NCBI GenBank assembly: GCA_000934665.2
Contig: KZ538182.1
Span: 1-64,000 of the forward strand
DNA length: 64,000 nucleotides
Source: Catajapyx aquilonaris
Taxonomy: Eukaryota
Direction: 5' to 3'
Under the pieces are notes generated by a model, which had not been told where the DNA came from, did no database searches, and saw nothing but the letters and a program-made list of their open reading frames with translations. A program made the translations under genes and the position numbers. Numbering within the stretch: position 1 is the stretch's first letter; every line of letters starts with the position of its first letter. Shown here in pieces: positions 16,200 through 60,286 of this stretch.

Positions 16200-16427
16200 G
16201 GTGGTCGGCAGCCTGCGGTGGAGGTGTCCGCTTTGACCTGCCTGCCTGCATATAATGGAATATGTTACATTACCCACTATAGGTAAGGCCTGTTGCGTGC
16301 AAAAGCAATGTTACGTTACACTCTACTTGTCAGTAAGGTCTGCAAGTGCGCAAGTAATGCTACATTACACGTTCAGAAGGTCATACAATGCAAACCAACT
16401 GGAGGAAATTCTAGGGCTGGTCAAGTC

Positions 16428-29055: not shown

Positions 29056-29128
<73 letters not shown>

Positions 29129-36026: not shown

Positions 36027-37938
36027 TTAGCGACTGGTATGCAACGTACCGTCTCCATGTATGGTGCACTGCTCCGTGAGGCAGATCCAGATTGGCTGTA
36101 AGTAAGAAAACCGTTACACCAATGACATGCTGTGACTGTTGCATTGTTGTACTTACAGGTGCTAATGCTTCGAAGATGCACTCGGCACCTTCCCACGACG
36201 CCTTGCACCGTGTCTCCTCCGTGATCTCTGTAAAGTAAGACAGTACATATCAGTTGATCAACAAAGCGAGACAGACAGCATATGTATACCTGTGCGGTTC
36301 TTGGTGACCTCGATGACCTGTTCCTCTACGCACTCGTCGATGAGCTTCTCCATCTCCGTGTCCTTCTCCTTGTTGTGCTTCTTTGCGATCAGGTCGGTCA
36401 CCAGGTGAGCCAACTCCTTACCTGAAGCCAGCTCATTGCCGTCCAGCTGCAATAACCAATGCGACCAACAATCAGGCTAGGGGGTTGAGAAGAACCATAA
36501 AACGTATACTAACCAGGTCCAGCTTCTTCATGATGCATTGCGCCTTGCACTGTCCAAATAATAAGGAAGAGAGAGGTCGTGATAGTAGGTACATGATATG
36601 GGATGAACTATTATTATTATTTTATAAAGGCTGCATGACTGACCTTCTTCTCTGCCTCGTCGAATATCTCTAGGAGCTGCTCCCTGGTGAAGGCCTTGAC
36701 GCAATCGTCAGGCTCCCTAGGGATGGTCGTGGACATGTCCATCATCCAGCAGGGCAGCTTGACCCCTACCTCCCTGCTGCACTCCAGGAAGGCCGTCATC
36801 TCTCGCTCCGTCAGGTGGATGCACTCCTTTGAAGGAATTTCAGAGGTGGGCACATCAAACAACAATGCAACTTATTATTGTCACTATTGCTAATATAATA
36901 CATACCTTCCAGACTTTGTTGGCGTGTGGGATACACTTCTCCTGAGCCTTGGTGTCATTCTCTTCACGACATATCATCCAGGAAGACAGCGTCAAAGGAA
37001 AGAGAATCATGCACTTTTCACTTTGCGCAAGAGTTTAATGACTAACGTAAGTAGACTACTGTATCTGCCTAAACCGCAAAGCATTAATATACATACATAC
37101 ATACATACATTTCCTTCACGGCATATTCCCATCAAGATGGGGTTACCAGCGATGACCAGGTAGGAACAGTCCACCTGGCCATCTCGAACGACCAGTATAA
37201 TGAATCCTCTGGTGACTGGTCAGGCCACGCAGAGGATATAATGAATAGGATGATAATGAAAAGGATGACATGAATACATACAGATACACAAACACACGCA
37301 CAATACACACATATAAATATACAAAAAACCATATAAAACTATGTAAAATCTATGTACAAATGAGTCTCCGGTTAAGCATTAATATGGAGAATCAATTGCT
37401 CTTTCATGTTTTTAGTGTTGCTAAAAAGCATCAAAAGACATTTAAAGAGCATTAACAATTGATTCACCATGAGAGACTCGGTAGCGATGCTCTTGTAATG
37501 CTGTTTGTTTCTAATTCAAAGAGAATTAAAAATTTAACTGTCCGTGGGATGCTCTTTTGATGGTTTGCGGTTTACAGCGTATGTGACCTACAGAAATTAC
37601 GTTCTCTTCTCGCTGAGAAGCAGCATTATGGAACTGGTACATTTTTGGCAAATGCTGTGATTTTAGACCTGTTTCGATCCCCCCAAAAAATTGCCAGGAT
37701 GGCCGAGTCACTACATGAAATGCACAAGCTGGGAGGGTCACACAATGCACTAAATTTTCCACTGCTGATTAATTAAGAGAAAAGGTCCAAACTCACGGAT
37801 GGCAGCGACGACCTGAAATGATGCAAATTGTGATAATTAGCGTGTCTAATTAAAACGTGGAGTTCATGCCGTCATAGGCAGACTTACGGAGAGGAGTGTG
37901 GCTCCGACGAGGACGACCAGATTGGATGTGGAGGTCAT
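36027..37938 (-). CDS. OBP-like secreted 12-Cys protein 1. Exons 37938-37888, 37812-37797, 36961-36906, 36826-36644, 36549-36514, 36446-36290, 36227-36157, 36095-36027 (~212 aa; optional extra exon 37215-37109 possible)
   Basis: Signal peptide MTSTSNLVVLVGATLLS|VVAA; ECSREVG...|CKAQCIMKKLDL|LDGNE...LIDEC...RCKASWEGAEC...|WICLTEQC: OBP spacing C2-x3-C3 and C5-x8-C6. Confidence 0.8.
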
Positions 37939-40322: not shown

Positions 40323-40411
40323 ATAATTGAATCGGTCATTTGGAAAAGAGGTCATCTCCAGCGCATTTCCAGAGGATATATGACCCCTTTTCAAAATGAC
40401 CGATTCAATTA
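40323..40411. repeat. Small foldback (mini-MITE-like hairpin)
   Basis: ATAATTGAATCGGTCATTTGGAAAAGAGGTCAT ... ATGACCCCTTTTCAAAATGACCGATTCAATTAT. Confidence 0.7.
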
Positions 40412-40854
40412 TAGTACGACCTCGTCCTCTCTCCGCCAGTTATAATCAGTAGCATTGCGGTGCAGTTGGGCAATTTTCGGGTCATATTTATTAATTATGT
40501 AGTTTAATGACAGAGATTTTTGGGTTAGTAACGGGGGTTGAGTGCGGGGTAATTATTAATAAAAAGTGAGCAATTGTTCCATCCAATTTCGAACTCTCCA
40601 GTTCATTGTTGTATATATCGGTTATTTTTACAGCCGTTTCGAACATTGTTGGAAGACTGCAACAATGCGCCTTTTTTGTGTGTGTGTGGGGGGTAGGGGT
40701 TGGGATGAGGTCGAGAGGAGGGGTTAGTAACAATCTGCCGACGTTTTACAGGCCGATGGGTTCTTGTATCCAATTGTTGCGTCGGCAGTGGTTGGTGACT
40801 TATGTTTTTTTTTTTTAAACTGTCCATTGTTGTTTAGTATATAGTTCCAGCCGA

Positions 40855-42078
40855 TTAGAAGCCTGGGAGGAAGAAGGACCTCTTCTTCCTGGCTCCCTGC
40901 TGGTCCTCCATGATCCTTTGGCACACGCCGGACATGCAGCTCATCACGCGCTGTTGATGGTGACAGAAGCGATTGTTACATTCAGCGGGGTCAACAATGA
41001 CCGAAGTCCGAAGAGAACTTACGTCAACAACGATGGGGATGCTGCACTCGATGGCGTTCTCTGCGGCGAAGCACCCGATGGCCCTCTTTCCATCTGGAAT
41101 GAACCCATGTTTATAGCATATATGCTGGACAGGGCCCCGCTCATTACTTGGACCATCATCATGCACTTACTTTCCTTCTCTCCGAATGGGTTGAACATGC
41201 TGGTCTCCGGTGGGTTCTGCATGCACATGGTGAAGTTGTTCCTGTGGGCGTCGGTCAGGCCTCCGTCCTCGAAGAAATGGGTGTGCAGGTAGTGGAAGAA
41301 TCGGCTCTCAAGAAGGAGGCCCTCCTCGTCCATCTGATGGTGATGGTACAACACAGTCGTGTTAAGGCCTGTTCACGCGACTTGAGCCTCGGTCGCACGA
41401 CCAAAAAAAATGGGGAACCCCCGAAAAGAGTGTGCGTACTTACCAATCCAAGACCCTGGAATGCGCACTTGGCCAAGCACTGAGGAATAAGAAACGTGTT
41501 ACATAAGATTATTATGATGCGTGGATGCTGCTGCGAAGGGAGGGCAACGTGTGTCGACCTTACCTTCGACCTGACCTGGGTACCGAACTCCATCCAGATC
41601 TCGATGTCGTCGTCGCATTCGGACCAGTCCTCTCCGTTGATGATGGCAATGAAGGCGCAGGGGATCTTGATGTCCAGGTGCTTCGTGCAGGTCAGGACGG
41701 CCTCGAGGACCTGGGGGGTCACCACGTTGCAAGCCTATAATATAATGAGGAGAAAAATTATTGTCAGGACAGCGCAACAATGAGAATAAGCCACAACAAT
41801 AATAAACCTTGAGAGCTGCAGGGACCAACTTTCCGGGGCAATCCAGGTCGCCAGCCTTGCCGGCCACTTCTGCAAAGATATAAGAGCGACGATTGTTGCA
41901 GCAGGTACTACATACATCAACAATGCGGCTTAATAATTACCTGCGGCGTTCATTGCAGTTGCGCTGTGCGCCTGCAACAATGGGACGATTATTCGTTCAA
42001 TATTATTTAAAAAGGGCTGTAAATGATATTATTCCAACGTACCACTGCGGCGACTAGGAGCAAGAGTTGGTACATCAT
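40855..42078 (-). CDS. OBP-like secreted 12-Cys protein 2. Exons 42078-42043, 41971-41941, 41869-41808, 41734-41564, 41479-41444, 41333-41171, 41093-41023, 40950-40855 (221 aa)
   Basis: MMYQLLLLVAAV|AHSATA; DCPGKLVPAALK|ACN...TCTKHLDIKIPC...EC...|CLAKCAFQGLGL|MDEEG...TMCMQ...|GCFAAENAIEC...|SCMSGVC; TATA-like TATATTTAAA on the minus strand at 42207-42198. Confidence 0.85.
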
Positions 42079-43267
42079 GATGATGGGTATGTTCCTATGT
42101 GTCACACTGATGCTGGGTAATGTCTGTCTGTCTGTTTGCATGTGTCGTTCACGAATGACTGGTTCAAGAAAGACTGTGGAGTCGGGCGGGGTCGACCTTT
42201 AAATATAACGCGTGGTATGTCCTCAGTTACGTCCGGACACTGCACATCCTCCCGCTGCCTCCCCCCTTTTTTTCCTCATGAAAAGCTTCCTTCCCATGGA
42301 TGATCGTGATGCTGTGTGTATGGTGGGTCGACAGACCTTGAGGGGAGAGGAAGAGGCCTCATCGCCACTCATGTTCGGGGCACAGGAATGTCCGTCATGC
42401 CGTTACGCAATATAGGCAAAGACGCCGCCGACCGACAACAATAATTGTCAGCCATATTTATCACCTAGCCTAAAAATCAGAGTCATTTCGGACAAGATGG
42501 GATTGTCATATACCTTCGCCTTCATGACAGTGGTACGGTAACATAATTATATAGGTGATTTTTTTTACGAGCTCAACCGTGTGCGCAGCCACATTCGCGC
42601 AGCTGCACAACGTTGCCAGAGTTACTCCCCAGGTAGATCTGAGGTTCGTTCTAGAGCCTTGGCAGCGTCGCAAATGTGGGCCATCACCCCAGCCGTGTAG
42701 CATTGGAAATAAATGCAGCACTCTATCATTGATAATGCCAACCCTGCTCGTTGCGCAAAATATGCGTTGCGTTCGTGTAAAAATCTACAGTGGGAAGATT
42801 CTTGTATGCAAATTGCGACGGAGTATTTCCTAATTAGATTTCGCAATTCTGCCTACATTTTTTGCAATTGAATTATTTCTGCATGGTTCTGGGCATTATT
42901 GGGTGGATGTGCCTACATGAGTTGCGACACATTGCTAGTGGCATTGTCTCTGCTCACCTGAGGCAAGGACACCCCCCATTCATCTGATGACGGACACAGC
43001 ATACACAGCTGGTACATGAATTATTCAGAATGTGGGGAGGTTTTTGCGCAGGTGACGCTGGTTTCTGGATGATGAATAATCGCGTGTGTAAAGGTGTGTA
43101 CGACATCCAGGAGAAGATTGGAGCCGCAGATACACTTGAGGCCGCCCCTGCTGCCCCTCTATCATGAGGATGCTGTAGAGATAGATTCGGTACAGCGTAG
43201 CATCAACCACTGCACCGAGGAAATATACTCACTCGCTTATTGGCATTTAACTCTGTCTACATGTGGG

Positions 43268-43613
43268 CAGGGAGCATATACTACATAAGAGGCGCAAACT
43301 TCTGTCGTCGCCTGTGATGTCCGCGTCTCTCTGTTTGGGGCCGTTGCCAAGGCTAGCGACCATTTTGAAGTGCGGGCAACGCCAACGAGGTATATTAAAT
43401 ATGGTACAGGCAAAAATAGGGTCCGCCATCTTTGATTCGCGCGTGTAGTTGCCAAAACCATCAAAGATGGCGGACCCTATTTTTGCCTGTACCCTATTTA
43501 TACCTCGTTGGCGTTCCCCACACTTCAAGATGACCGCCAGCCTTGGCAACGGCCCCAAACAGAGAGACGCGAAAATCGAATGTTTGTGCCTCTTATGTAG
43601 TATATGCTCCCTG
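43268..43613. mobile_element. MITE family A, copy 3 (7-bp TSD ATGTGGG)
   Basis: CAGGGAGCATATACTACATAAGAGG...CCTCTTATGTAGTATATGCTCCCTG; TSD at 43261-43267 and 43614-43620. Confidence 0.92.
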
Positions 43614-43694
43614 ATGTGGGTTCAAAAGTGCGAGGGCTGCATTACATGGGAAATAAACATCTAACTATTGCCTATATAGGCGTTGAGTTATGTA

Positions 43695-43835
43695 CAGGGC
43701 GACCCTAAAGTCAGGACACATTTGTCATTGGATTGTATTGTTGGTTTCCAGTTGTGCCAACTTGTGCCAACTCAGCCTTTACTTGCTGTCAACAATCTCC
43801 TAGTTGGCACAACTGGAAACCAACAATGCATCTAC
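43695..43835. mobile_element. Tc1/mariner-type MITE fragment; related fragments at ~45765-45833, 48860-48961, 53400-53490
   Basis: TA-CAGGGCGACCCTAAAGTCAGG end and internal palindrome TTGGTTTCCAGTTGTGCCAACT...AGTTGGCACAACTGGAAACCAA; matching opposite end CCTGACTTTAGAGTCACTCTG-TA at 48941-48963. Confidence 0.6.
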
Positions 43836-44585
43836 ATGTATTAAACGAAGAATGTTCATATTAATTAGTAGCTTTAACTGCAAAGGTGTCATCGTCTCTG
43901 TATTGTGAGTCATTCTAGGATATGCCCCTTTTTTTTGGAAAAAAAACTAATAACGTGTCGTTTCTTACGCGTGAATATCTCAGTTTCAACAATGGTATAT
44001 ATGTCTTGCATTCTCAGATCCTATCGGGACAATAGTACGGGATGCCTTTTATGAGACTGGTTGCCCCGGAGGATTCCGATGTCAGCTTTTTTGCAATAAT
44101 TTCAGTAGCCTTCTGACAGGTAAATCGACTGATTATTTCCTGTTTGGGTGACCGACAAAGAGGATGATCGTCATCGATTCTTCTTCAGCAAACTGTATCC
44201 GTGGTGCAATCGTGGGAGTATTTGCGACGACCCTCGTTACATGAATCGGCCTGTGTATTCGTGCGTGTATGCCATATAAGGATTGACGATGGGATGAGGA
44301 AGGTGTGTCCAGCACGCGATGGAAGGCCCCACAATCGCCTTTCCCTTTATTGTTGCACGGCCCGACTCTTGTGTCGGCAGCAGGAAACCCTTTTGTTGTG
44401 GGGCAGCATATCGGCCTTCATAATAATGGGACGTCGCTTGATTGGACGAGCTGCCTGCTGGATGTGCCGTATATGGTGGTGGTATGTGTACAGTACAAGA
44501 ATGAGACTGAGCCCGATCAAGGTCGAACATTGTTGCCGTTGCACTTTATTGTTGCGTGACAATGTGTATAACAACAGGCACAGTG

Positions 44586-46536
44586 CTAGACCAATTCAAT
44601 GGCTGCGGTGAGGCTCTCGCACTCTGCGTCCAGGCAGGCCTCCACCTCCTGAAATACCGAGACATGTATTTAATAGGTACCTACCCAGAAGCTGTGCACT
44701 GTGCTGTACATACAGGCAGTACAATGTCGGCGACACATGTCAGCGCCCAATACGCGGCTGCACAGGTCTTGTCCATTGGGACCAGCCCTTCATCTGCAAT
44801 TAAGGAACGATGGCGTCTCATGATATGTTGTGAACGCAAGGTCACTCTTTATGTATAGAGGTGTCATTAATGGGCCTGTACATGGCACCTAGCTGTGGGA
44901 ATAATCATTTGTCACTGTTAATTATTGATGAGCCCTCACCTGCTCCTGTCTCCAGGGCTCCTATTTCCTGCAGGGCTCCCGACAGAGAGAGGCATTTGAC
45001 CAGCCTGTCCTGAGCCTTCTGAAGCTTCTGAAGCTGAAGGAGGTTCCTGTCCTGCAGACCGTGATTCAGGAGCCAAGAGTGGGGGAGATCACTCCCTGAT
45101 GCAGGAGCTGCGGGAGAACTGTCTGATGCTTCTGGGTCCTTCATCTGCAGGAAGGGCAGCTGGGACAGCAGCCAAGACATCCTGGACGCGTCCGGGAGAC
45201 CGTCCGGACCAAGCTTTAGTAAGGGATTCGCCAGATTTATAGTCAGGGATTTGGAACATTTTACGTAATTTCTTCAAACAAAAAACATCCGAAAAAAACA
45301 GTACAATTTTTTACATGCTGGGTTTGTCAATATTGTCGGCTATGACCACATTTTGCAAATATATTGCAGACATAAAAATATGACCAAATTTAATATGCGT
45401 CATCCTGTATAGATGACATCGCGGCAAGCCAAAGGTAGATCTGAGGCCATCTGATTGTTGCGTATAGTTGCATGTTCACGCCTATTGTGATTCTAGCCAT
45501 TTTATATTCAATAAAAACATGCCTCCAAGGCCGCCCTCCCGTGTGACTCGCACCCACAATCATGCATGGATCTAGTGCCCCTGTGGCAACAATACTCACC
45601 AGTTCCATCTTCCTCCACACGCATTGGATGAAGCACTGCAACAATGCGACGGGATGTATACAGTAAGAAGCCAGATTTGGAACAGAAATGATAAAAAAAT
45701 CATTAAAATCCCACACTATAATACATGGTGACCCTACACAGTCTTGACACATAGGTAATCATATTGTATTGTTGGTTGACAATTGGCAACCAACAATGCA
45801 ACCTATATGTGTCGAGTCATTAGAGTCACCTTGTACATTGCAACTAATGAAGTTTCTTTGACAATTTCTTTGACAATAATGTTCTCATTGGTTGACTGTC
45901 GTGTGCGTCAATGACATGTAATAGCAGCTTCAATATTATTGCGAGGATGACCCCCAATAATGACCTTGTCCTGCATGTCCTGAGTCAGGTTCCAGAACGA
46001 CGTCCCTTCCTTGCACTTGGCTTGGTCTCTTGGCTGTTGCTGCACGAATAGACGGTACATGTCGCAGGGCAGCTCCACGTCCAGTTCCGCAGAGCAGCTG
46101 ACCACTGCCTCTCGGAGGTCGGGACTGACCAGCCCGCAGTTCTGCAGGGCATGAGGGCAGCAGTCAATAAGTGTTGGTGGTGTACCTTTGGGGTACTATG
46201 GCAGCACGTACCTCGTAGATTGCGTCTCCGAAGAGCTCCTCACAGTCAGCGGCTCCCAGCACCAGACTTCCGTTGACCACCTCTTCCTCTACCAGCAGGG
46301 CCGTACCCGGTACCCCCGATGCACCGCCGACCACCACCACCTCGTCCTCTTCCCACTGACCCACGCTTCCGTTTCTGGCAGAACCAACCGCATCGTCCTG
46401 TACCTACTCAAACAACGTTACCTTCCAACAGTACATACGACAGATGACCATACTATATACGGACCAAGTACATGGAGCGTGTCCGTCCAAGAGTGCAGGC
46501 GACCAGCAGGAGAAGCATCAGTGTCGGACCCTTCAT
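44586..46536 (-). CDS. OBP-like secreted 12-Cys protein 3. Exons 46536-46465, 46403-46212, 46141-45965, 45635-45600, 45213-44940, 44793-44714, 44648-44586 (~297 aa; first junction less certain)
   Basis: MKGPTLMLLLLVACTLG; ADCEELFGDAIYE|NCG...SCSAELDVELPC...KC...|CFIQCVWRKMEL|LGPDG...LVKCL...|TCAAAYWALTC...|ACLDAEC. Confidence 0.83.
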
Positions 46537-47142
46537 GGCTCGGAGCTGGTGTGTCCAGCACTGGCTGACCATCAGCTGTCGGTCCTCGGTGTTTGTTATA
46601 GTGGGCCATCGGAAGCCATGACCTACCCCTGATGCTGACCACTGACCACGCTCTAGTTGGCTCCACTTCTTTTATGCCATCAATCACGCAAATGCAGCGT
46701 TTTTTTAAAAAGGACCCACTTTGCCCAAACACATGTCAGGTGACGGGACAACAATGGTGCTGGAAATACGACAATGAGACTGGAACCGCACTCTTTTATT
46801 ATTGTACCGTATAGTGTTGTTGTTTCTCTTAGGATCAGCGCACCAGTTGGCTCTCCTTTTTTTTGCTTTCGAAACAATGGCACGCTCGTCCTATATATGC
46901 ATTTTTGGGGCTACCGTACTGTATACAGCCCACTATACAGAGGACCAGAGGATGTGATTGTCAAGAGTTTCAGCTGACGTCACCATTGTTGACTTGCTGT
47001 TAAACCCCAACAATGGTGCGACCTGAAAAACTGCAGTGTGCCCATTTTTTTGCGAAAAACATGCGATATATTTGCAGGGTACAAAACACGGGTGGTACAA
47101 CGAGAGTATGATCTACAACAATGCTACGGAGGGTTCCTTTTC

Positions 47143-48339
47143 CTACAGGAAGTGCCAGATCATACGCATGGTTGATGACCTCCGACCTCTCCTGGGCGTC
47201 GGAGTGGTTGATGCTCCGGTTCCAGTCAGAAGCCGACGGCAACTGTTCTCGAAGCATCCGTGCAGACGCTGCAAAATGGGTCAAAGGTCAGAAGGTCAGA
47301 AGTGGAGGGTTCATGTATTATAGACGGACACATACGTTGAGAGTGGGTGTGGCGGTGCAGAGGACCCCGCTCCAGATGGCCTCGCACGTGGGGCCGCCCC
47401 GGGTCTCCTCCTCGACCAGCCTGACCTCCCTCAGGCACTGCCTCAGACTCCTCTTCTCCTCGTCGGTCAGCACTGACCATCCGCGAACCCTCATGAACGA
47501 GTCCAGCGCAGTCACCGTCTTGTTCTCATCCAGAAGGTCATTCGAGCCCATCTAATAAACACATCCGTACAGTACATGTCATAAGGTCAAAGCACCCTCT
47601 GTACGTACCATGTTGAGCTTTCCATAGTAGCACCGTTCGAAGCACTGGAAAAGGACAGAAGGTCAAAGTTCTGTTGGTGCAGCATCGTACTGTCATGTAT
47701 ACTGACCACGTCCCTGGTGGACCGCTCGAATGCCTGCCACTCCTGCCTGACCTGACCTTGCCTGAGGTCGCACACTTCTTCGACAGGCTGCACCGGAGGC
47801 TGTCCGGGCCTCTGTGTAATACCTGCGCTGGAACCACCGGCCAGCATCCTGTTCCGGAGGGTGCACGGAAGCTGGATGCCCAGCTCCTCCACGCACTCCA
47901 GCTTCTTCTTCCGGTGGTCCTCGTCCGCAGAAGTGCTGCACTCCTTGTATGCGCAGTCATCAGACCCACAGAATTCAACACAATGTGCGTCATATACTTA
48001 CGGTGTTGATGCGTCTCCACTGTCTCAGGCACAGGCTGGTCTCCCAGGGCCGCAGGTCTGAAATCACAGCACTCGGTATAATAAACTCGTGAGAATACGG
48101 CCATTGTTGCACTTACCACCTTCGTCGTTGCTAAACTGAGGAGCAGCCTGGAGAAAGAAGAGGAGAAAAAGGCTTAAAAGAGTACAAGCCTATATAACAT
48201 TTCCAAGTAAGGCTCTCTCTCTCTCTCTCTCTCCGGATATGCTTCGGATATTATGGCAAAGATCATGTCTCACCCACGAGGTGGTGGCCGACGAGTAGAT
48301 GACGACGAGAAGTATCACTGTCGCAGGAACCAACGCCAT
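47143..48339 (-). CDS. OBP-like secreted 12-Cys protein 4. Exons 48339-48274, 48147-48117, 48057-48002, 47943-47707, 47644-47609, 47551-47336, 47268-47143 (255 aa)
   Basis: MALVPATVILLVVIYSSATTSW|AAP; LCLRQWRRINT|ECS...ECVEELGIQLPC...VC...|CFERCYYGKLNM|MGSND...RQCL...TCEAIWSGVLC...|GCFENSC; TATAAAAA on the minus strand at 48440-48433. Confidence 0.85.
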
Positions 48340-50202: not shown

Positions 50203-53200
50203 TTAAAAGTGCGGCCTCCTGCACCAGTTCTCCATGCATGAAAGTGTCGGCTGGAGAGAGAAAAAAGAAATGAACGGGACATGTTAAATCACGGTTGAAT
50301 GAGCAGCATCTAATCGAATAATAAGTGAGAGGGGGATTCACCTCCATGTTGACGTGTGTCCACCAGCACAAGTGTGCCTCCCATGCCGCCTGGCACTTGT
50401 CCCCATTGGCGCCGTGCTTGTGGACAGCCTTCTCCTCCAGGCACCTGTCCAATGCGGCCATCTTGACCCGACTCACCTCGTCCCATCGGGACATGGTCCT
50501 TGAAATGAAATGCTTGAACCGATCCTTGTTGATGTAACCGTGACCACCCATCTGCAAATATGCCCGGTTTAATACAATGCCACGAGAAATTAATGCGCAC
50601 AATATACTGACCAGTCCCAGCTCGGACCAGACGCAGTGGGACCAACACTGCAAAGAAATATCGCGTATAAGTCATGGCTGCATGCTTCGACCCCCTTATC
50701 CTCCTGAGACCCCTGGTACAGTATACTGTACCTTGGTTTTTGTTTGTTTTTGAATGGAAAAACAAAGGTACAGTATACTGTACCAGGGGTCTCAGGAGGC
50801 TATGTCAGCAGCCAACTCAACTGACCTTCTTGGCTCCCGGCATCTCCCAGTCGTCCACTTCCTGGTCGGAGAAGCAGCCTCCGTTCTTCTGGGACTGGTC
50901 CTTCAGACGCAGCCAGAAGGGAGGCTCCATGCGCTTGCGCTCGCAGCACTTCAGGTAGGCCATCTGAACTCCGCGGTTCTCAACCACGCACGACTGAAAT
51001 CGATGGCAATGAGGATTCAAATACAAACAACAATGGACCCACTTTATATGGTATGAGTTGGGTACTTGTGGCGCCACGAGCCACTGGGGGCAAAATAGCG
51101 AATTCGCTCTTTTTGTCGCCAACGGTTCGTGGCGCCACCAGTACGACATCATTAATTCCCAGCACTAGTGTACATACCAGCCTGGCCTTGGAAGAGAACT
51201 TGCACTCGCAGTCCGGATCGTCCCTATTGTTGTTGCCTCCACCTGTTGGAAAAATGTCGTCGCGTCATTTTAACAATTGGGTTCATTGTTGCCCTATAGT
51301 CGAGAAGTGGAAATATGTCGCGGATATTGCCGACTTCATTCTCTTTCTCGGCCTGATCCGCCGTACTTTTCAAGTACTTAGGCCGTTCACTATATGGTAT
51401 GAACCTAGCAGAGGTCAGAGGTAGTTGCGGTTACGTGGCTTCCGAATTGCTTCATCTCAAAACCGCCATATCTCAAGGCCGCATTCTTCCTGCTTTGATT
51501 ATTCTGCTCGATTAATACTCTATTATTACATACAAGCCTCGTTACAGGTTTATTAGAAGCATCTCTATGCACCTATATGCTGCATTGGGATCGAATTCAC
51601 GTGTTGCTTCAAACTGGTTGATGGAGAGAACAATCTTGGGCAGTGCACCACCCTGTATATACATTATCCGTAGCTAATATGACTTTTCCTGTCGTAAAAA
51701 AAATACCCGACGTAATTGGCATGGTCATCGTTCTGCGTCTCTTCCTCTCGTGCAGTGCTAAAAAAATCGCAAATGCAAAAAAAGAGAGACGCTTGATCCT
51801 GAAGGCCATGAACTTTTTGGTGACGACAATTGTGGCATTCAGGTAACCTGCGCAAGGGCACGTCCACTGATTTATTAAGTTTGGCGTCTTTGTATTATTT
51901 GCCTTCTTTGACGCAATTCGTGTTGCCAAATATCCTGCGTAATTTCCGCATGTTTATGCCAACACTTGCTGATCTAAAAGATAGTTCCAGGGGGGTTCGA
52001 CTTCCGCGGTGTCGATCTAGTTTAACCAATTTAAAACAAAGCAAGAAAACAATCTGGATAGTAATTAAGTGTTGCGAAGTACTAAATGCGTGCCATGCGT
52101 CACGCGTCGTGATCAAGTACAGAGAGACACTTCTTGCTGAGCACGACATACGTACGCACTGGAGCGTGATGTAACGACCGCAAGTGAATGAGATGCTTTT
52201 TTTAAAAAAAATACATTAATTGGCAAGAAAAAGTCCTGAGAAGCCACGTCACGTCAGGGGGAATTCCTCTGGACGCGTGCTAACACGTCATATATAGTCA
52301 TCAGGTGTGTGTGTGCAAAGGTCAACGCTGTCCTCACATCCTCGACTCTCACCTGTTCCACCATTCTGCAAGAGAGAGAGAAAAAAATGAAAAGTTTTGC
52401 ATAAGTGACAGCGTCATACAGCAGCAGGTGACATGTCACGAGCGGATGTCGCAGCGAATTGGGGTGACACACTATCAATGGAGGTCAATATCAGTAGGTT
52501 GATAGCCAATCCAGCCAGAATATGTTACCTAACGTAACAATCATAACCCGATCAAAAATGTTGGAGAATCTAAGCCAATGTAAATCATCATCCCAACAAG
52601 AGCGTGATTCGAGTATCCTTTTTTCTCATTGGGCAGCGGAAAATGAGACCGCGACCATGTTGTTATGAATACGATGCGATTCTAACCCTGGACAACAATG
52701 GCATAGAATGTTGTCGGTGTCATTTTCCAAATTTATATGGTGTACATTTGACCTTGGCGGATATATAGCGAACCCGGATATCCGGAAGTGGCCTGTCGCC
52801 GGAAACATATTTACTGTAGGGTCGGCTGAATCCGAATCCGAAAACCGTCTGTCGGTATCTCCTGCGGTTTAGTATAGGGCCTGACACCTGTCCACGGACA
52901 GACGGACATAGCCGTTAGAACTATAAGATTTTTAATGAGAAAAAGTCTTTATTATTTTCATTGCTCCGAATTTTAGTCACGTTCTGACGTTTTGGCTTTT
53001 TTCCCCCCCTTTGACAATGTAACGAAAGTGCAAAGAGAAAAACTACATGAGACGACCAGAGAGCTTCCGTTAAGACGAAAGATTGAGACCCCGCACATTA
53101 TACGGTATCGTCATGCAATGGACGTGCGGACGAAACGTGTGTGTCAGATTGGAGCGAAAGTGTACGTGCCCCGATAATGACACCCACCCACGCCATCACA

Positions 53201-53831
53201 TGACATTGCGATAATATAATCCACGCAATGCACTTGAAACACTTTCCCCAGCATGTGCGGGTCATGCCTCACATATACAGTCAACAACAACAATAGTACG
53301 TGTGTGATTGATTGGAGCAGTTTACACAGCATTGGCCTCTCACAAGCATGCGCAATTAATATCTCTCTCTATACCACAGTCTGGATACATGCATGTAATT
53401 GGATTGCATTGTTGGTTGCCAGATGTGCCAACTCAGCCGAGTTCCAATAATCTGCTGTAGTTGGCCCAACTGGCAACCAACAATGCGGTATAAATCAGAA
53501 AGTTTGTCCGTATGTCCGGGCTACCTGTCAGACTATTGAGAGAGCTGAAACTTTGTCTTATAAGTATATTTATCAAACCATCAGGTGCGAAGCTGCATAG
53601 TTCGTGTCCAATATATGAGCGTGTGTTTACCTGGTCCTGAAGAGATCCCCATTGTTGCAGCTGCTGAGGAGACCAGTCCCTTCCGTATTGTTGAGGCTGC
53701 TCCGGCTGCCATCTCCTCCACTCCTGATGCTGATGCTGCTGGCCCCTGTAGCCCTGGACGCCCTGCTGTTGGACCAACAGGAGGACCAAGACCAGCACAG
53801 AGCAGATGATGGCCTTATTGTTGGCGATCAT
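50203..53831 (-). CDS. OBP-like secreted Cys-rich protein 5 with Gln/Trp-rich N-terminal extension. Exons 53831-53631, 52365-52353, 51242-51178, 50993-50826, 50647-50612, 50551-50342, 50250-50203 (246 aa)
   Basis: MIANNKAIICSVLVLVLLLVQQQGVQG; DCECKFSSKARL|SCV...KCCERK...GCFSDQEVDDWE...|CWSHCVWSELGL|MGGHG...DRCL...KCQAAWEAHLC...|SCMENWC; TATATTTAAA on the minus strand at 53917-53908. Confidence 0.85.
50700..50799. repeat. Perfect 34-bp-arm hairpin (mini-MITE) inside an intron of OBP-like gene 5
   Basis: CCTCCTGAGACCCCTGGTACAGTATACTGTACCT ... AGGTACAGTATACTGTACCAGGGGTCTCAGGAGG. Confidence 0.85.
52820..52929 (-). mobile_element. Short dispersed repeat, DINE-1/Helentron-like (copy 2)
   Basis: Reverse complement of the 25029 and 61868 copies (GAATCCGAAAACCGT...TGTCCACGGACAGACGGACA...CCGTT...TATAAGA). 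Confidence 0.6.
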
Positions 53832-55518
53832 CGTCGTATTGTTGACAGATGCTGATCCGGTGAGTCTGTCTGGATGACTGAGTAGATCGGGGCTGGTGCT
53901 CGGATCATTTAAATATATCCGCCGGCCAATCCCATCTGCATATCAAGTATAGACGCCGGGAAAAACCACCACCACCACCACCTCCTCCTCCTCCCCTACC
54001 CACCCACCCTGGCAACCTTCCACCTCCTCAAGCAAGCAGAAGTTAACACGGAGGAAGTCATGTCCTCCCTATACCACAAGCCCCGATAAAGACGTTGATT
54101 AGCTTGAATATATTATCAATGCAAACATTGGTCCCAACCGCGCATACCTTACGTAAAACAAAAACAAATATAAATCGTGTGCGTAACTCCTGTTGAACTT
54201 GCTCAAGGACAAGCCAATAAGAGTACGTTTCAGCAAGACGTTCTCCTGGGGGATTTTAGACCGGTTTTTCTCAGGTTAAAAGTTCATCCATGAACGTGTC
54301 ATGCTCTGATGCTGATGCTTCGGAAGGAATCCGAGATTCGCCAATTTATTGCACCTGAAAGTACGGGTAGGTTAGGTTAGATTATCAGATGGCTCTGATG
54401 CGATCTGGAGAAGCGACATATATCCAATGTCCAACAATGAAAACGATGCGGAATGTACAAAACAATGCGTTTAATGCAAACTATTACACACTGATAATAA
54501 TAATATTATGATCTCTCTCTTTCCCATGCTGTATAGTTTTTAAAAAAGGCCTCATCACACTCCAGTGGTGTTATTGGCCATCCTGCTGGTCACATGATCC
54601 AGATCAGCCAATGGCTGCTGCCTGATTCGTGCCACCAGCAGACAAATGGAGCCTTTTACACACATCCCCTTGTATAAACAGGACTCGCTCTAGGAATAAT
54701 GTAGCAAACACTGAGAGAAACATGCATGATTTCCATGACACAAGGATTAATTATGTCGGTGCAGTACTTGCAGGTGTACTTGCCAACATAATTAAACCTT
54801 GTTCGGGTAGAGTAATTATTTTTTTCTCTCTACTTCTCAACATTGGTAACGCTGTTGAGCCCACCATCCAAAAAAGTGGATCGGGTCCAGACCGGGTCCG
54901 CCTATTCGGGTTCGGTGTAAATGACCAATTCACGAAAATTCCACGATTGTGCTACGCATTGTTGACTCTGCAATTGGTGACAACTATGAAAAGCACGACC
55001 CCATCGCGGAATCTTCGTGCTGCATTGTGAATGTGGCCTTCGTGCGACCTCTAATGCATCGTTTAAAAAGGGCTGCAACTATACTTTATACACTATACCC
55101 TCTGTATACAAAAAAATAATAATGAGATAACTGCTGGGCAACAATGGCGGCCAACAAATTGAACTACCACATGATGATGATTTTTGCATGTATTGCACTG
55201 AGTAGACGCTTACAATATACGCACTTGGTAAATGCGTCAATCAGGTGCGTTTATCAGGTTATTGCTTAAAAATTGGCACACTTGTATTATATGCATATGG
55301 TAATTTGAGGCTGACCATTGCTGATGGATGGGGGTCGACAACAATTGGGAAGGTTTTTTACACAATAATGAGGGATGGTAAGGGGAATTAAATAATGCGC
55401 GGTTTGTATAGAGGGGTAAAAAAGAATGATAAGGACTAGCAAAATTGGTGCTGTGTTGGCCAGCATCACCAGCATCCCTGCTGCATTGTTGGCTTATTCC
55501 TCTCCGGCCGATTGTTGG

Positions 55519-58500
55519 TTAGGCCAGGGCCAGATGCCGGTGCCACTCGCACCAGGACTCCATGCACAGCTGCGTAGGCTGCAAAAGCACACACACATCA
55601 GGTTGCATAACAAAACAGTCGTGCCCAACCTACATTACATGATAATAATCACCGATGGGCAAAATAATGGCCGACAGACCACCACCTGCAATTTTTGCAT
55701 GAGAAAAAGACAAATTTCCCTGGAATTGAGGGAGGTAATGGTAAGCTGCTGGTGCAAATGTGGTCTTATCGTGACGTCGTCTCAACACTGGCTGATGTGT
55801 TGCAATGGAAGGTGAGGCGTGACGACATGCGCGTGATATTATGCACACCGGACGGGTAATATTTCTGTCACGATTTCGGCGGACTCGATTCGCGGAAAGG
55901 AAGTTTGGGTCACTCCCAGCAAGCCGGACAAGTGTGCGCAATATGCAAAACACTATGCAAAGATTGGTCCAGCAGTTTAACCTCCACTCCGATGAGTGAT
56001 GAAATATTTGCACAAAAATTCATCGGAAATTCCCGTCCTTAATTATTATGATGAATAGCCTCTCTATAGACCGGAACTTTGGTTTACTCATACTTCAAAA
56101 ACTGCGGCAATGGGACCGTTTACACGGCACTGCCAAGTAGTGAACTAGACCAGATACGTACTCGATCCACTTCATTTGGTTGATATACAGTAGATGAATT
56201 TTGTATTAGCGCAACCGGGTGCGCAACACAGTTTGCGCAACTTGCAGTGTTTATCAGTGATAACTGATCCTGCATATACACTGTTGGATGGCCATTTTTG
56301 GCAACACTGCTCGAAGTGGACAGGGTCCGGAACGGGTCCAGTTTCTGGGCTATAACAAGAGTAGAGGAAGAACTGGAGAAGTACTGACCTCGGCCCAGAC
56401 CTTTTCCCACCAGCAGAAGTGAGCGTTCCAGGCAGCTTCGCAGGGGCCTGCCAGGGGGAAAGAAATAAGAAAAAACCGAGTAGTGTCAGTGTACAGGGTG
56501 TGTGAAAAGGTGGCTGACCTCTGTCGTAGTGGACTGTGGCGTTGGCCGAGAGACAGTCGATCAGCTTGTGTCGAAGGGGCAGCGAGAAGTAGAGCCCGTT
56601 GCCCTCCAGCTGCGACTCCACGAATCGGACGAATGCGCCTTGCTTCACCTCACCACTCTTGGACAGCTGAGGAGGAGGAGACAATCATTTCACAAGGATA
56701 ATCATAATGATAAATAATCAGGACTCGATCAAACTCACCAAGTCCAGCTTCCTCCAGACGCAGACAGACCAGCACTGGACAATGGTCGAGGGGAAGAGAA
56801 GCCATGAATATAGTATATACCAGGAAGATGAGCCAACCGAACCGGATCCGGAACCGGCCCACTGCAGCGAGCGCGGCTCCGTTGTGCTGCGCGAATGTGG
56901 GTGCGCACTCGGTGCTGTGGGCCGGTTCTCGGATCTGTGTATCATACTGACCACGTCCTGCGAGAGGGTCTCCCAGTCGTCGACCTCGTCGTCTGAGAAG
57001 CAGGATCCGAAGGGCAGCAAGGGATGCCTCTCCCTCATCCAGAATGGGAGAGAGATGCCCTTCCTGCGGGAACACGACGCGAACACCTCCAGGACGTGGA
57101 AGTCCTCCATTATGCAGCTCTGTATGTTGGGGGGTCACGGGGTCACACACACACACACACACAGGGCATGGGAGGCAACAATTAAAAGCACGTCGACATG
57201 TCACATGTCGTGTTAATGTTTGAGGGAAACACATTTGAATGTGGCCATCGAGAGTAGCCAAAGTGACTATACAGGGTGGTCCAAGTTCAAGTGTCGTTTT
57301 ATAACGGCGATTAATATCAGTGATTTTGCGATGACGTAGCAGCGACGCGTAAAATGTCCCACTTCGGCGCATCTTCGGCGCAATCTAAGTGGGCAATTTT
57401 ACACGTCGCTGCTACGCCATCGTTAAGCGCTTCTATTAATCGCCGTTATAAAACGACACTTGAACTTGGACCACCCTGTATATAAAAGCAAATAAGCCCT
57501 CGGTTCGCCCGATACGATTTTAATATTATAGATAAATGTAAATAAGTGGCGACTGACCCTTCTTGCTCTTGAGGAGTCGTCGCAGGCGCAGGAGGATGAG
57601 AAATCTGTCGGAAAGGGTGGTCGTCATTTTGGCCCATTTTTAGTGGAGGTCCGGATTGACCTGGTCGGGGTCGACCTCTGTATATAGCCCTTGGTGTGTG
57701 CAGGTACAGGGTACTTGCATCGTCGTGTAGGTACACGGGCATATCTCCCCCGCCCTTCTTACCCAGCCCACCATGCAGCCAACCGCATGCCCCAATTAAC
57801 TCCAGTTATTAACGCGATACCCTCCTAATTACTCTCGATTCCCCCACTCTATTATTATCCTTATTCTCTCCTTTTTTGGGCGGAATTGGACCAAAATTTA
57901 TTACTCCCTAGGTGAAAAGAAAAAGCGATGCTCCGTCTACAACAAAGAGGGCAGCCTATTCATTCGAGATGGACTGTGACGCAACAATAGAGCGGCAAAT
58001 TCGCACTAAATACGACTTGTAATTATTAACAGAACAAATGTGGAGCTATACGAAGAGGCATGCATATATGCAACAATGTGTGTAATCGCACGTGTGTGGG
58101 CGGGTAGACATGTTCGACGAGTACACGATTTGCACGTGCGAATCATTAGACCGTACGTAACAAGGTCGCGGTGTTACATTATTTTATTGCCGATACATCA
58201 CTCGCCATGATGTGCATTATAGGTCATCCAAGCGCATCGGAGTGTCTCGCAGCAGGTCACACGGTATACCTTTTGACAAAGCCGGAAGCAACTCGCGAGC
58301 ATATCACATTATAACCAGAGCCAGTTTTTGCAGTCTACTGGGCACCTTCTCAGATTCTTATCCAATCAAATAGATATTATATGCTCGGATTATTTAAAAG
58401 TAGGCCATCAACAGAGAAAGAACCTGGCTGCAGATCAGACGATCCACATTCCTATACCCCTTCCGATCACATGTGACGTTCTCAACCTGCGATGCCAGCA

Positions 58501-60286
58501 CCTTTCCGCATTTGCATATGTACAGTTGAAGACCCAATTGCTTCAGATAAGGGGCCTAAAGGTCACCAGGTCGTCCTGGCGTCCTTAGCAAGAGAAAAAA
58601 AAGCCGCGCATCTATACAGTCGTTGCAGAAACAGAGGGGCAGAAATTGCAACAATCATTTTTTTTTTGCATAATCAGGACTCGAAGTTATAAGCAGAAAT
58701 CAGTAGTAAAACTTGGGGAGGAAAGTTATCTGTCTGTTTAAAAAGCAGGAAAGTAACGGTGTTCCGATCCAGTCCATTTCCGGCATTTTTACAACATCAC
58801 TTCTAGTCAGATGTATTATAACAACTAGTGGATCGGAAGCAGTGTTGCCATGGCCACTCCAAAAATGAACATCCGCGGTCATTCCGTGGGAAATATAACA
58901 ACAACAAGAGCCAGCAATTAAATAAGGGAGAAAGGATCGTAAAAATGTACTGGAGAAAAATGCGAATGAAAAGAAAAGGGGTATCGCAAAAGAGGTGATT
59001 GGCAGGCAAGGACGGTCGCCTCTCGTTATTTCGATGCCATTGTTTATATACACACGACACGCTGTACTTACACTTTACACGACCTGCTTGCTCCAGTGCG
59101 CGTGCACTACACTAATCACTCCTAATTGCTGCATATTGCGACACTTGTTATACAGGTCGTTTCGAAACTAGACGTTTGTTTAACATAATATTGACTGTAA
59201 CATGCACCATTATGAAATGTAACCAGCCATTAACTCTATCCCGAGAGGAAATATGAAATAAATGCAATTGCACATTGTCATATAGGAATTCTGATGGTAC
59301 TGGTATACTGTCTTAATGAGACATCCATTTTGCGTGATTTTTCTCTAATTTTTGCTCGTACAATGGGAGACATTAATAGGTTTACTCGGAAATATTCCGT
59401 TAATTTGTCTCCTGAAAACCAGACCCTGGAAATGCCTATAAACTTATAGTTTGGCGCCTATGCTGCATAATACATTGATTTTACAATCGTTTGAAGCCTA
59501 TACCTTGCATTCCTATCTCGTCAATGCCAAAAATCTCGTATTTATGGATTTCGGGTATTACGCATAATAAATAATTGTTATCTTTGCATTTATGCAACGG
59601 GGCTCGACTCTCGTAGATTTCAATGCTTACTATATAGTGGCCACTCACATCAACAACCCCCCAACCCTTTTGTAGGTACATTTTATTACTCGAAATTATA
59701 TAGGGGACCATATAAAGAACTATTGCACTAAAAGTGCAAGTTTATACCCACTGGGAGGGGGTCAGCCCGGCAACAAAAATGGAGCACTTTCAATATTCAC
59801 AAATGTATAGCCCATGCAATGCCAACAAGATCACGGCCCATCCCTGAACCCACACTCTGACTGACCACTGTCCACTCCCATGCCGACTAATTAGTGGCAA
59901 CCTCATTTCCCTATTGGGCATTTTGTATTCGGCCCCGATTCAGCCATAAATAAATAAACAAATAAAGCGACCCCCACAAGGACCCCCCCGACCATGCCAC
60001 CACCACCACCCTCCAATAAAAATGGGCCCCTTTCGATCCGGAATATCCGTACCAGGAATCTGCGAGAAAGGTATAACAAAAAAAAATGGAATCAAGCAGT
60101 AGGTAAAGAGAACCGTTACCCTGCTTATTAAACGCTGGCCAGCACTCTTTCCAGGAAACATGCCAGCCCAGCTTTCTATCCGACTATTATTGTTCGCTAT
60201 CACAGCTGATTGCAACTTACCCTGGAGGAGGCCAGGGTGACCATGGTCCAGAGGAACACCAGGGTGGCCGTTGGGTTGGTCATCAT
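55519..60286 (-). CDS. OBP-like secreted 12-Cys protein 6. Exons 60286-60221, 60059-60053 (7-nt microexon), 57604-57558, 57119-56952, 56774-56739, 56666-56519, 56447-56389, 55578-55519 (~196 aa; further small N-terminal exons possible)
   Basis: MMTNPTATLVFLWTMVTLASS; SCACDDSSRARR|SCI...SCSRRK...SCFSDDEVDDWE...|CWSVCVWRKLDL|LSKSG...IDCL...|PCEAAWNAHFC...|LCMESWC; closest paralog of gene 5. Confidence 0.83.
57272..57478. mobile_element. Tc1/mariner-type foldback MITE with TA TSD, in an intron of OBP-like gene 6
   Basis: TA-CAGGGTGGTCCAAGTTCAAGTGTCGTTTTATAACGGCGATTAATA ... TATTAATCGCCGTTATAAAACGACACTTGAACTTGGACCACCCTG-TA. Confidence 0.92.

What the first reader, a model, noticed from the sequence alone, without database searches (positions are those of the whole stretch)
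36027..60286. Hidden tandem array of six highly diverged OBP-like secreted proteins with a 12-cysteine pattern
Seen: six minus-strand genes, invisible as long ORFs. Each has a signal-peptide exon and the skeleton C-x~10-|xC-x13-14-C-x9-(C)-...-C-...|C-x3-C-x7|...C...C-x8-C-x7-8|x4-C-x4-C, and every model splices in frame. Established: C2-x3-C3 and C5-x8-C6 are the spacings of insect odorant-binding proteins. Inference: the extra Cys (two N-terminal, two inside the C1-C2 loop, and a C-terminal C-x4-C) do not match the Plus-C signature as I recall it (C6a-Pro...C6b). With little identity outside the Cys, this may be an old, lineage-specific and undescribed OBP subfamily: a clustered carrier system for odorants, pheromones, lipids or gland secretions.
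Basis: partly seen in the sequence, partly recalled or inferred. Interest (0 to 1): 0.88.

Follow-up and report, generated by a model that had tools for sequence, protein, structure and literature searches.

The report
Six divergent 12-cysteine OBP-like genes
A hidden row of six very different but related genes for small secreted, cysteine-rich, helical proteins that most resemble insect odorant-binding proteins; it is a real gene cluster, but an unusual version of a well-known family and not a new kind of thing.

Summary
Six multi-exon genes lie on the minus strand between 36027 and 60286. Leave-one-out profiles recover each gene (E 2e-4 to 4e-11) and nothing else in the window. Contigs of run X5 skip exactly the predicted introns of two genes, g2 and g5. 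They also corrected two of my models, including a 13-nt micro-exon.

The odorant-binding protein (OBP) reading is moderately supported. One exon peptide of 11 matches Pfam PBP_GOBP in register but below cut-off (20.4 vs 22 bits). C2-x3-C3 and C5-x8-C6 are invariant. Two folded half-domains are helical, with OBP-family structures as top but non-significant Foldseek hits. Spliced full-length proteins could not be passed to Pfam or AlphaFold.

Neighbouring genes place the host among hexapods, where OBP clusters are normal. Twelve-cysteine OBPs (Plus-C) are already known. This arrangement differs from the published Plus-C motif: no C4a, no proline after C6, four N-terminal cysteines and a C-terminal C-x4-C. 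No relatives of the N-terminal exon were found.

Verdict: a new variant of a known kind, of moderate interest.

The parts
36027..37010 (-). g1: 6 exons, 206 aa, 12 Cys after the signal region. The signal peptide is weak; an alternative signal exon at 37938..37888 is possible.
   Evidence: Reading of the sequence. In frame with GT-AG at 5 of 5 introns. Cys spacing. Leave-one-out E 1.5e-6. Alternative first exon. Not covered by the read-laying run.
40455..42078 (-). g2: 8 exons, CDS 42078..40855, 221 aa, 12 Cys. The 3' UTR runs to about 40455, where a contig ends in a poly(A) tail.
   Evidence: X5 contig joints 40950>41023, 41093>41171, 41333>41444 and 41479>41564 (depth 498); the last joint moved my donor from 41576 to 41564. 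A 25-nt poly(T) loose end lies before 40455.
44586..46536 (-). g3: 7 exons, 272 aa, 12 Cys after the signal region, with a long acidic N-terminal insert and a long C3-C4 loop (x57).
   Evidence: Leave-one-out E 2.5e-7. No RNA joint listed.
47143..48339 (-). g4: 7 exons, 255 aa, 12 Cys. The intron between C4 and C5 is absent (fused exon 47551..47336). Basic C-terminal tail.
   Evidence: Leave-one-out E 2e-4. The fused exon folds as three helices, pLDDT 78.5.
50203..53831 (-). g5: 7 exons, 246 aa, 13 Cys after the signal region. Exon 1 is a signal peptide plus a Q-rich stretch (53831..53631). There is a 13-nt micro-exon (52365..52353) and a fused C4-C6 exon (50551..50342).
   Evidence: X5 joints 50250>50342, 50551>50612, 50647>50826, 50993>51178 and 51247>53631 with 8 letters between. 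Those 8 letters are found once in the intron, within the AG/GT-flanked 13-nt micro-exon. Exon 1. Pfam PBP_GOBP match at 20.4 bits.
55519..60286 (-). g6: 8 exons in my model, 196 aa, 12 Cys. It is closest to g5 (36% identity).
   Evidence: The acceptor at 57604 needs one extra base of phase, so a 7-nt micro-exon 60059..60053 is proposed; this is inference only. Leave-one-out E 4e-11. No RNA joint listed.

Best explanation
The region holds a tandem array of six old paralogues (16-36% identity). At least two are transcribed and spliced as modelled.

Each gene encodes a secreted protein of about 180-250 residues, built from three parts:
- An odorant-binding-protein (PBP/GOBP superfamily) core with the six classic cysteines. 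C1 lies in the large N-terminal exon. C2-x3-C3 sits on its own 12-codon exon. C4 and C5-x8-C6 follow.
- An N-terminal extension carrying four more cysteines.
- A C-terminal C-x4-C placed 11-12 residues after C6.

By analogy with solved OBPs, the classic pairs (C1-C3, C2-C5, C4-C6) would lock a helical bundle around a hydrophobic cavity. The six extra cysteines would add three disulfides that fasten the two extensions onto it. The proteins would then act as extracellular carriers or buffers of small hydrophobic ligands such as odorants, pheromones or lipids.

Shown here: the genes, their splicing, the cysteine scaffold, their paralogy, transcription of g2 and g5, and the helical nature of the C-terminal half.

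Inferred: OBP homology (near-threshold evidence), secretion, disulfide wiring, ligand carriage and tissue.

The arrangement is a Plus-C-like 12-cysteine variant that does not fit the published Plus-C motif.
For: - Gene models are in frame with GT-AG at all 37 modelled introns.
- Intron positions and phases are shared between the paralogues; the C4/C5 intron is lost in g4 and g5.
- Cys spacing is invariant at C2-x3-C3, C5-x8-C6 and the terminal x4 in 6 of 6 genes. C2-C3 and C5-C6 are the two OBP spacings reported with a coefficient of variation of 0 or nearly 0 (at most 0.09) across insect orders (PMC2808328, table passage read).
- C1-C2 is x16-21, inside the general OBP range X15-39, in 6 of 6 (PMC2808328).
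- Leave-one-out profiles show true paralogy.
- Pfam PBP_GOBP matches the g5 exon at E 5.6e-4, 20.4 bits, profile 60-112 of 113, and again on the read-through at 20.1 bits.
- The PDB profile search ranks aphid OBP3 (4z39, 4z45) 2nd and 3rd with C4, C5 and C6 aligned.
- AlphaFold half-domains are helical (pLDDT 62 and 78.5).
- Top Foldseek rows are AgamOBP20, honeybee PBP, Chrysopa OBP4, AgamOBP22a, D7 and GOBP2 for g5. For g4 they are sand-fly SP15 proteins, AgamOBP5 and AgamOBP4.
- Spliced contigs and a poly(A) end appear in X5 and are absent from DNA run X1.
- N-terminal hydrophobic stretches are present.
- The neighbouring ZSWIM8 gene nests among hexapods, SH-aLRT 97, the group in which OBPs occur (PMC5850775, PMC4145409, passages read).
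Against: - No test reached a formal threshold. The Pfam score is below the 22-bit gathering cut-off and came from 1 of 11 exon peptides; the equivalent g4 exon gave no PBP_GOBP match.
- All Foldseek E-values are 0.65 or worse.
- PDB searches with the N-terminal profile and with the g5 exon alone found nothing at E<=10.
- C3-C4 (x43-57) lies outside the general OBP range X21-38 in 6 of 6, and C4-C5 (x13-27) lies outside X7-15 in 4 of 6.
- The folded pieces are half-domains with six-row alignments.
- Run X5's kind is not on record, and its depth cannot rank genes.
- There is no evidence on ligand, tissue or disulfide pairing.
Confidence: 0.65

Rival explanations
1. The six genes are ordinary, very diverged members of the already described Plus-C OBP subfamily. 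They would nest inside it in a tree, and the odd cysteine positions are just drift within that class.
For: - Plus-C OBPs are described as having 12 cysteines and 170-245 residues (PMC2258175, passage read). Here 5 of 6 genes have 12 Cys and the proteins are 196-272 aa.
- C3-C4 of x43-45 in 5 of 6 fits Plus-C X39-47, and a Cys 11-12 residues after C6 roughly fits C6a at X9-11 (PMC2808328).
- Plus-C proteins share only about 17% identity with each other (PMC3595023, passage read), so drift is large.
Against: - There is no Cys between C4 and C5 (C4a) in 0 of 6 genes.
- The residue after C6 is I, S, V, T, W, W and never proline. The position of the Plus-C proline is recalled, not read.
- There are four cysteines N-terminal of C1.
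- No phylogeny was possible, so nesting is untested.
Confidence: 0.2
2. This is an unrelated lineage-specific family of secreted cysteine-rich helical proteins. It only mimics the C-x3-C and C-x8-C spacings and has no common ancestry with OBPs.
For: - Every homology signal is sub-threshold.
- Three-helix fragments match many folds equally well.
- The word-index, full-HMMER, Atlas and PDB searches found no relatives.
Against: Independent weak signals all point to the same family and the same register:
- Pfam positions 60-112.
- C4, C5 and C6 aligned to aphid OBP3.
- OBP-family chains top two separate Foldseek lists from paralogues that are 23% identical.
- C1-C2 spacing is in range, and the host is a hexapod.
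Confidence: 0.12
3. They are OBP-fold proteins whose job is not chemosensory carriage. Instead they are a gland, salivary, seminal or haemolymph secretion that scavenges or inhibits, like the mosquito D7 or sand-fly SP15 members of the same fold.
For: - g4's best structural rows are sand-fly SP15 contact-pathway inhibitors, and a short D7 appears for g5.
- The extra disulfides and charged tails (g2 RKKR, g4 Arg-rich) suit stable secreted effectors.
- OBPs are widely expressed outside olfactory organs (PMC3428353, introduction passage read).
Against: The structural rows are non-significant. There are no tissue data. SP15 and D7 belong to blood-feeding Diptera, and nothing here suggests that life style.
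Confidence: 0.2

Closest known systems
Plus-C odorant-binding proteins of Diptera and other insects
   Same: - Secreted OBP core with the six classic cysteines plus six more, 12 in all.
- Length near 200 aa.
- Long C3-C4 spacing (x43-45 against X39-47).
- A cysteine about 11 residues after C6.
- Genes in tandem clusters.
- Very low identity between members (PMC2258175, PMC2808328, PMC3595023).
   Different: - No C4a between C4 and C5.
- No proline directly after C6.
- Four rather than fewer cysteines ahead of C1.
- A second C-terminal cysteine only four residues after the first (C-x4-C).
- Nesting in the Plus-C clade was not tested.
Classic insect OBPs (Pfam PF01395 PBP_GOBP)
   Same: - C2-x3-C3 and C5-x8-C6 are invariant.
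- C1-C2 spacing is within range.
- Near-threshold Pfam match over C4-C6.
- Helical C-terminal half.
- Signal peptide.
- Hexapod host.
   Different: - Twice as many cysteines.
- N- and C-terminal extensions of about 50 and 20-45 residues.
- C3-C4 (x43-57) and mostly C4-C5 (x13-27) are longer than the general motif allows.
Atypical / dimer (two-domain) OBPs with 12 cysteines
   Same: Twelve cysteines in one polypeptide (PMC3595023, PMC3428353).
   Different: There is no second OBP domain. Each protein has only one C-x3-C and one C-x8-C, and the N-terminal extension is about 50 residues with four Cys.
OBP-like proteins of chelicerates and myriapods
   Same: Distant, near-threshold similarity to PBP_GOBP, with assignment resting on cysteine pattern and modelling (PMC5381604, passages read).
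   Different: Those proteins resemble Minus-C OBPs, lacking C2 and C5. Here C2 and C5 are present in 6 of 6 genes and cysteines are gained, not lost. The host here groups with hexapods.

Membership tests
Insect OBP superfamily (Pfam PF01395 PBP_GOBP) | Match to the PF01395 profile at or above its gathering score (22 bits) | tested here: inconclusive
   Only unspliced pieces could be scanned. One of 11 exon peptides (g5, 50342-50551) scores 20.4 bits, E 5.6e-4, profile 60-112 of 113. The read-through 50342-50647 scores 20.1 bits. The full-length spliced proteins were not scanned.
Insect OBP superfamily (Pfam PF01395 PBP_GOBP) | Six conserved cysteines with fixed C2-x3-C3 and C5-x8-C6, and C1-C2 of X15-39 | tested here: met
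   x3 and x8 occur in 6 of 6 genes; C1-C2 is x16-21 in 6 of 6. The motif comes from PMC2808328 (passage read).
Insect OBP superfamily (Pfam PF01395 PBP_GOBP) | Classic spacings C3-X21-38-C4 and C4-X7-15-C5 | tested here: not met
   C3-C4 is x43-57, so 0 of 6 are in range. C4-C5 is x13-27, so 2 of 6 are in range.
Insect OBP superfamily (Pfam PF01395 PBP_GOBP) | Compact six-helix fold enclosing a cavity | tested here: inconclusive
Insect OBP superfamily (Pfam PF01395 PBP_GOBP) | N-terminal signal peptide | tested here: inconclusive
   The 9-residue hydropathy maximum is 3.2-4.0 in g2-g5, 2.04 in g6 and 1.94 in g1. No signal-peptide predictor was available.
Plus-C OBP subfamily | Twelve cysteines | tested here: met
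   12 Cys in 5 of 6 genes and 13 in g5, counted after the signal region. Definition from PMC2258175 (passage read).
Plus-C OBP subfamily | C4a between C4 and C5 (C4 X17-29 C4a X9 C5) | tested here: not met
   No cysteine lies between C4 and C5 in any of the 6 genes. Motif from PMC2808328.
Plus-C OBP subfamily | Conserved proline next to C6 (the position is recalled; the paper passage says only 'one proline') | tested here: not met
   The residue after C6 is I, S, V, T, W, W. Prolines occur 3-9 residues later.
Plus-C OBP subfamily | C6a at X9-11 after C6, and C3-C4 of X39-47 | tested here: met
   C6-C6a is x11 in 4 genes and x12 in 2. C3-C4 is x43-45 in 5 of 6 and x57 in g3.
Plus-C OBP subfamily | Nesting inside the Plus-C clade in a family tree | not testable with these tools
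   No OBP sequences could be obtained, and spliced proteins cannot be handed to the search tools.
Atypical / dimer two-domain OBPs | Two OBP domains in tandem | tested here: not met
   Each protein has a single C-x3-C and a single C-x8-C.
Chelicerate/myriapod OBP-like (Minus-C-like) | Absence of C2 and C5 | tested here: not met
   C2 and C5 are present in 6 of 6 genes. Feature from PMC5381604 (passage read).
Chemosensory proteins (CSP) | C1-X6-8-C2-X18-C3-X2-C4 | tested here: not met
   No such spacing occurs in any of the six genes. Motif from PMC2808328.

The most novel reading that the evidence does not exclude
The six genes represent a separate, old 12-cysteine OBP class. It reached six disulfides by a different route from dipteran Plus-C, using an N-terminal four-cysteine cap and a C-terminal C-x4-C staple instead of C4a and the proline. 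Multi-disulfide OBPs would then have arisen at least twice, or be ancestral in hexapods. The switch seen in g5 and g6, where the x9 cysteine is lost and a new cysteine appears two residues from the first, would record a disulfide being rewired within the cluster.
Probability: 0.3. Interest if true: 0.55.

Novelty: new variant of a known kind. Interest (0 to 1): 0.35.

Why it matters
OBPs are the main soluble carriers of insect chemical communication, and their subfamilies are defined largely by cysteine patterns.

- A cluster with a new 12-cysteine arrangement, in a hexapod with no closely related annotated proteins in the collections searched, would add a data point on how extra disulfides and terminal extensions were added to the OBP core.
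- It would also bear on whether Plus-C-type architecture is old or convergent.
- In practice, it shows that such genes are missed by ORF-based or word-based searches. They have short exons, a 13-nt micro-exon and under 25% identity, so OBP counts in poorly annotated hexapod genomes are probably underestimates.
- It does not touch a long-standing open question, because divergent lineage-specific OBP expansions are the rule.

Tried and rejected
- Word-index protein search with the g5 exon, longer proteins only: no hit.
- ESM Atlas with the same exon: no usable hit.
- Full HMMER scan of 1.84 billion representatives with the N-terminal-exon profile A2: 2 hits. One is a leucine-rich-repeat/dockerin protein and the other has no Pfam family. 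Both are long repeat-type matches and were judged spurious.
- PDB sequence searches with A2 and with the g5 exon: nothing at E<=10.
- MAFFT alignment of separate C4 exons with the fused exons misaligned C4 onto C5/C6 (A1) and was dropped. A3, A4 and A5 use only the 2 fused exons and the 4 C5-C6 exons, leaving out the 4 C4-only exons.
- My first guess for g5 exon 1 (51809..51707) and my g2 donor at 41576 were wrong and were replaced after the read-laying run.
- The run search listed no holder on record as RNA. X5's RNA nature is my inference from its joints and poly(A) end.
- For g3, g4 and g6 no spliced contig was listed; 85 joints were not shown. g1 lay outside the 20-kb stretch laid.
- VIA-align wide and second-look searches gave only middling Z, tied with generic helical bundles.
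- No whole genome is held, so the family size in the genome is unknown.
- No further family exon was found elsewhere in the 64-kb window.
- The earlier-findings index returned nothing.
- Rejected on spacing: a two-domain OBP, a CSP and a Minus-C-like OBP-like protein.
Full report
**What is there**

The window is eukaryotic and has no long ORFs in the flagged region. I read the minus strand in three frames and checked the result by coordinates.

This gave six genes, g1 to g6, between 36027 and 60286. Each has 6-8 exons, and all 37 modelled introns are bounded by AG and GT. All six CDS are in frame and end in a stop. The stated start, 36027, is the end of g1's stop codon. The stated end, 60286, is g6's ATG. 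The longest exon has 79 codons, which explains why the genes do not show as ORFs.

**The cysteine scaffold**

After the signal region, g1-g4 read C-x10/11-C-x13/14-C-x9-C-x13..30-C-x16..21-C-x3-C-x43..57-C-x16..27-C-x8-C-x11-C-x4-C, which is 12 Cys.

- g5 and g6 lack the x9 cysteine and carry a C-x1-C at the first site. That gives 13 Cys in g5 and 12 in g6.
- Exon boundaries are shared. One lies one residue before the second cysteine. One lies directly before C-x3-C. One lies seven residues after it, so that motif sits on a 12-codon exon. One, in phase 1, lies between the next cysteine and C-x8-C; this intron is absent in g4 and g5. One lies 7-8 residues after C-x8-C.

**Not chance**

Pairwise identity is only 16-36%. 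Even so, a profile built from any five genes finds the main exon of the sixth at E 2e-4 to 4e-11 among 2,820 six-frame pieces of the whole window. No piece outside the six genes, on either strand, scores better than E 1.9. I found no seventh copy in the window.

**Transcription and splicing**

The run search listed four DNA-type runs of one sample and a small 2022 run, X5, of the same coded organism, with kind not on record. I laid X5 and DNA run X1 on 40400-60399.

- X5 contigs skip 40950>41023, 41093>41171, 41333>41444 and 41479>41564 in g2.
- X5 contigs skip 50250>50342, 50551>50612, 50647>50826 and 50993>51178 in g5.
- All of these joints have CT..AC ends, which is GT..AG on the minus strand. 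None is present in X1.
- One X5 contig ends in a 25-nt poly(T) before 40455, which is a poly(A) tail for g2.
- I therefore read X5 as transcript-derived.

The X5 contigs also corrected two of my models.

- g2's fourth exon uses the donor at 41564, not 41576.
- g5's first exon is at 53831..53631, a clear signal peptide followed by a Q-rich stretch. It is not the exon I had guessed.
- The joint 51247>53631 carried 8 extra letters. These occur once in the intron, within a 13-nt piece flanked by a polypyrimidine-AG acceptor and a GTGAGA donor (52365..52353). This 13-nt micro-exon restores the frame.
- g6's Cys-bearing second exon starts at an acceptor (57604) that likewise needs one extra base. 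A 7-nt micro-exon at 60059..60053 fits, but it is inference only.
- g1's signal peptide is weak. An upstream exon at 37938..37888 with a GTAAGT donor is an alternative.
- For g3, g4 and g6 no joint was listed, and g1 lay outside the stretch laid.

**What the proteins are**

- *Pfam.* Of 11 exon peptides, one matches PBP_GOBP: g5's fused C4-C6 exon. It aligns to profile positions 60-112 of 113 at E 5.6e-4 and 20.4 bits, against a cut-off of 22. A read-through that adds the C2-x3-C3 exon across an in-frame 60-nt intron did not raise the score (20.1 bits).
- *PDB by sequence.* A profile of the C-terminal halves (A3) ranks two aphid OBP3 structures second and third, with C4, C5 and C6 in register, but at E 0.16-0.34. 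Rank 1 is an exportin.
- *Folding.* AlphaFold models of the g5 piece (pLDDT 62) and the g4 fused exon (pLDDT 78.5) are helical.
- *Foldseek.* The top rows are OBP-family chains in both cases. For g5 they are AgamOBP20, honeybee PBP, Chrysopa OBP4, AgamOBP22a, a short D7 and GOBP2. For g4 they are sand-fly SP15 proteins, AgamOBP5 and AgamOBP4. Every E-value is 0.65 or worse.
- *Spacings.* C2-C3 = 3 and C5-C6 = 8 are the two OBP spacings with essentially no variation across insect orders. C1-C2 at x16-21 is inside the general motif. C3-C4 and most C4-C5 spacings are longer than that motif allows (PMC2808328, passages read).

Taken together, several independent weak signals agree on one family and one register. 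I put OBP-superfamily membership at about two in three.

**Host and context**

Upstream lie a ZSWIM8 gene (5986-10943, +) and a dynactin p62-like ORF (14652-16310, -).

- ZSWIM8's best relatives among long proteins are springtails, a damselfly and a thrips, at 62-72% identity.
- In a quick tree, ZSWIM8 falls inside the hexapod group (SH-aLRT 97), to the exclusion of the single crustacean sampled.
- Dynactin's best hits mix insects and decapods.
- No near-identical protein exists in the collections for either gene.
- The host is most likely a hexapod with no closely related annotated proteins in the collections searched.
- OBPs are reported only from hexapods, where they form divergent tandem clusters (PMC5850775, PMC4145409, PMC3595023, passages read).

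**Comparison with known classes**

- *Plus-C OBPs.* They are described as having 12 cysteines and one proline and 170-245 residues (PMC2258175). Their motif is C1 X8-41 C2 X3 C3 X39-47 C4 X17-29 C4a X9 C5 X8 C6 X9-11 C6a (PMC2808328). The six proteins share the count of 12, the size, the long C3-C4 spacing (5 of 6) and a cysteine 11-12 residues after C6. They differ in having no C4a, no proline next to C6, four cysteines ahead of C1, and a further cysteine four residues after C6a.
- *Two-domain OBPs.* Excluded, because each protein has only one C-x3-C and one C-x8-C.
- *Minus-C-like OBP-like proteins of chelicerates.* Excluded, because C2 and C5 are present in all six (PMC5381604).
- *CSPs.* Excluded on spacing.

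Whether the six nest inside the Plus-C clade could not be tested.

**Relatives elsewhere**

- The only wide search open to me was a profile of the N-terminal exon against 1.84 billion representatives. It gave two spurious repeat-protein hits.
- The word-index search and the Atlas gave nothing.
- This is weak evidence for a lineage-restricted N-terminal module. A 59-position profile of a fast-evolving exon has little reach.

**Mechanism**

The most likely reading is secreted, disulfide-locked helical carriers of small hydrophobic ligands. The extra three disulfides would tie the N- and C-terminal extensions to the OBP core. Only the parts list is shown here. Secretion, disulfide wiring, ligand and tissue are inferred.

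**Verdict**

The OBP-like interpretation is moderately supported. 'Undescribed old subfamily' is possible but unproven. Because 12-cysteine OBPs and divergent OBP clusters are well known in hexapods, I class this as a new variant of a known kind, with interest 0.35.

Noticed in passing
window 52353-52365 (-): A 13-nt micro-exon in g5. It is flanked by a polypyrimidine-AG acceptor and a GTGAGA donor, is present in an X5 contig, and is needed for the reading frame. g6 probably has a counterpart (7 nt at 60053-60059), which is inferred only.
   Followed up: partly
g5 and g6, exon 51178-51242 / 57558-57604 and exon 50826-50993 / 56952-57119 (-): The two closest paralogues have lost the x9 cysteine (replaced by Phe after Pro). 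They have gained a cysteine two residues before the first conserved one (C-x1-C). This looks like a compensated shift of one disulfide partner.
   Followed up: no
window 43250-43620, 27800-29650, 57135-57500: A repeated element with copies inside and beside the cluster. DNA contig depth there reaches about 40,000-65,000, against about 32 for flanking unique sequence, so it is a very high-copy repeat. Pfam found no family in its ORFs.
   Followed up: partly
window 5986-10943 (+): A ZSWIM8 homologue in two long ORFs (1145 and 597 codons) that overlap in different frames. The stretch has 56-65% G+C and Pfam finds TPR_ZSWIM8, SWIM and ZSWIM4-8_C. The junction between the two ORFs (an intron or a frameshift) was not examined.
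   Followed up: partly
window 14652-16310 (-): A dynactin p62-like ORF of 553 codons without obvious introns. Only the first third is 55-72% identical to arthropod dynactin subunit 4, and whole-length identity is about 33-38%. It may be a retrocopy or contain unrecognised introns.
   Followed up: no
g2 C-terminus (40855-40950, -) and g4 C-terminus (47143-47268, -): g2 ends with an RKKR dibasic site followed by seven residues. g4 has an Arg-rich tail. These are possible proprotein-convertase sites after the last cysteine.
   Followed up: no
window 30472-30890: A tandem repeat with a 133-nt unit, 3 copies at 95% match, with 50- and 83-nt sub-periods.
   Followed up: no
window 51218-51879: A low-depth (6.8) unspliced X5 contig lies inside the intron between g5's micro-exon and its Cys-bearing exon. 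It overlaps the first 25 bases of the Cys-bearing exon (51242..51178) and covers the ORF I first mistook for exon 1. It may be pre-mRNA or a separate transcript.
   Followed up: no
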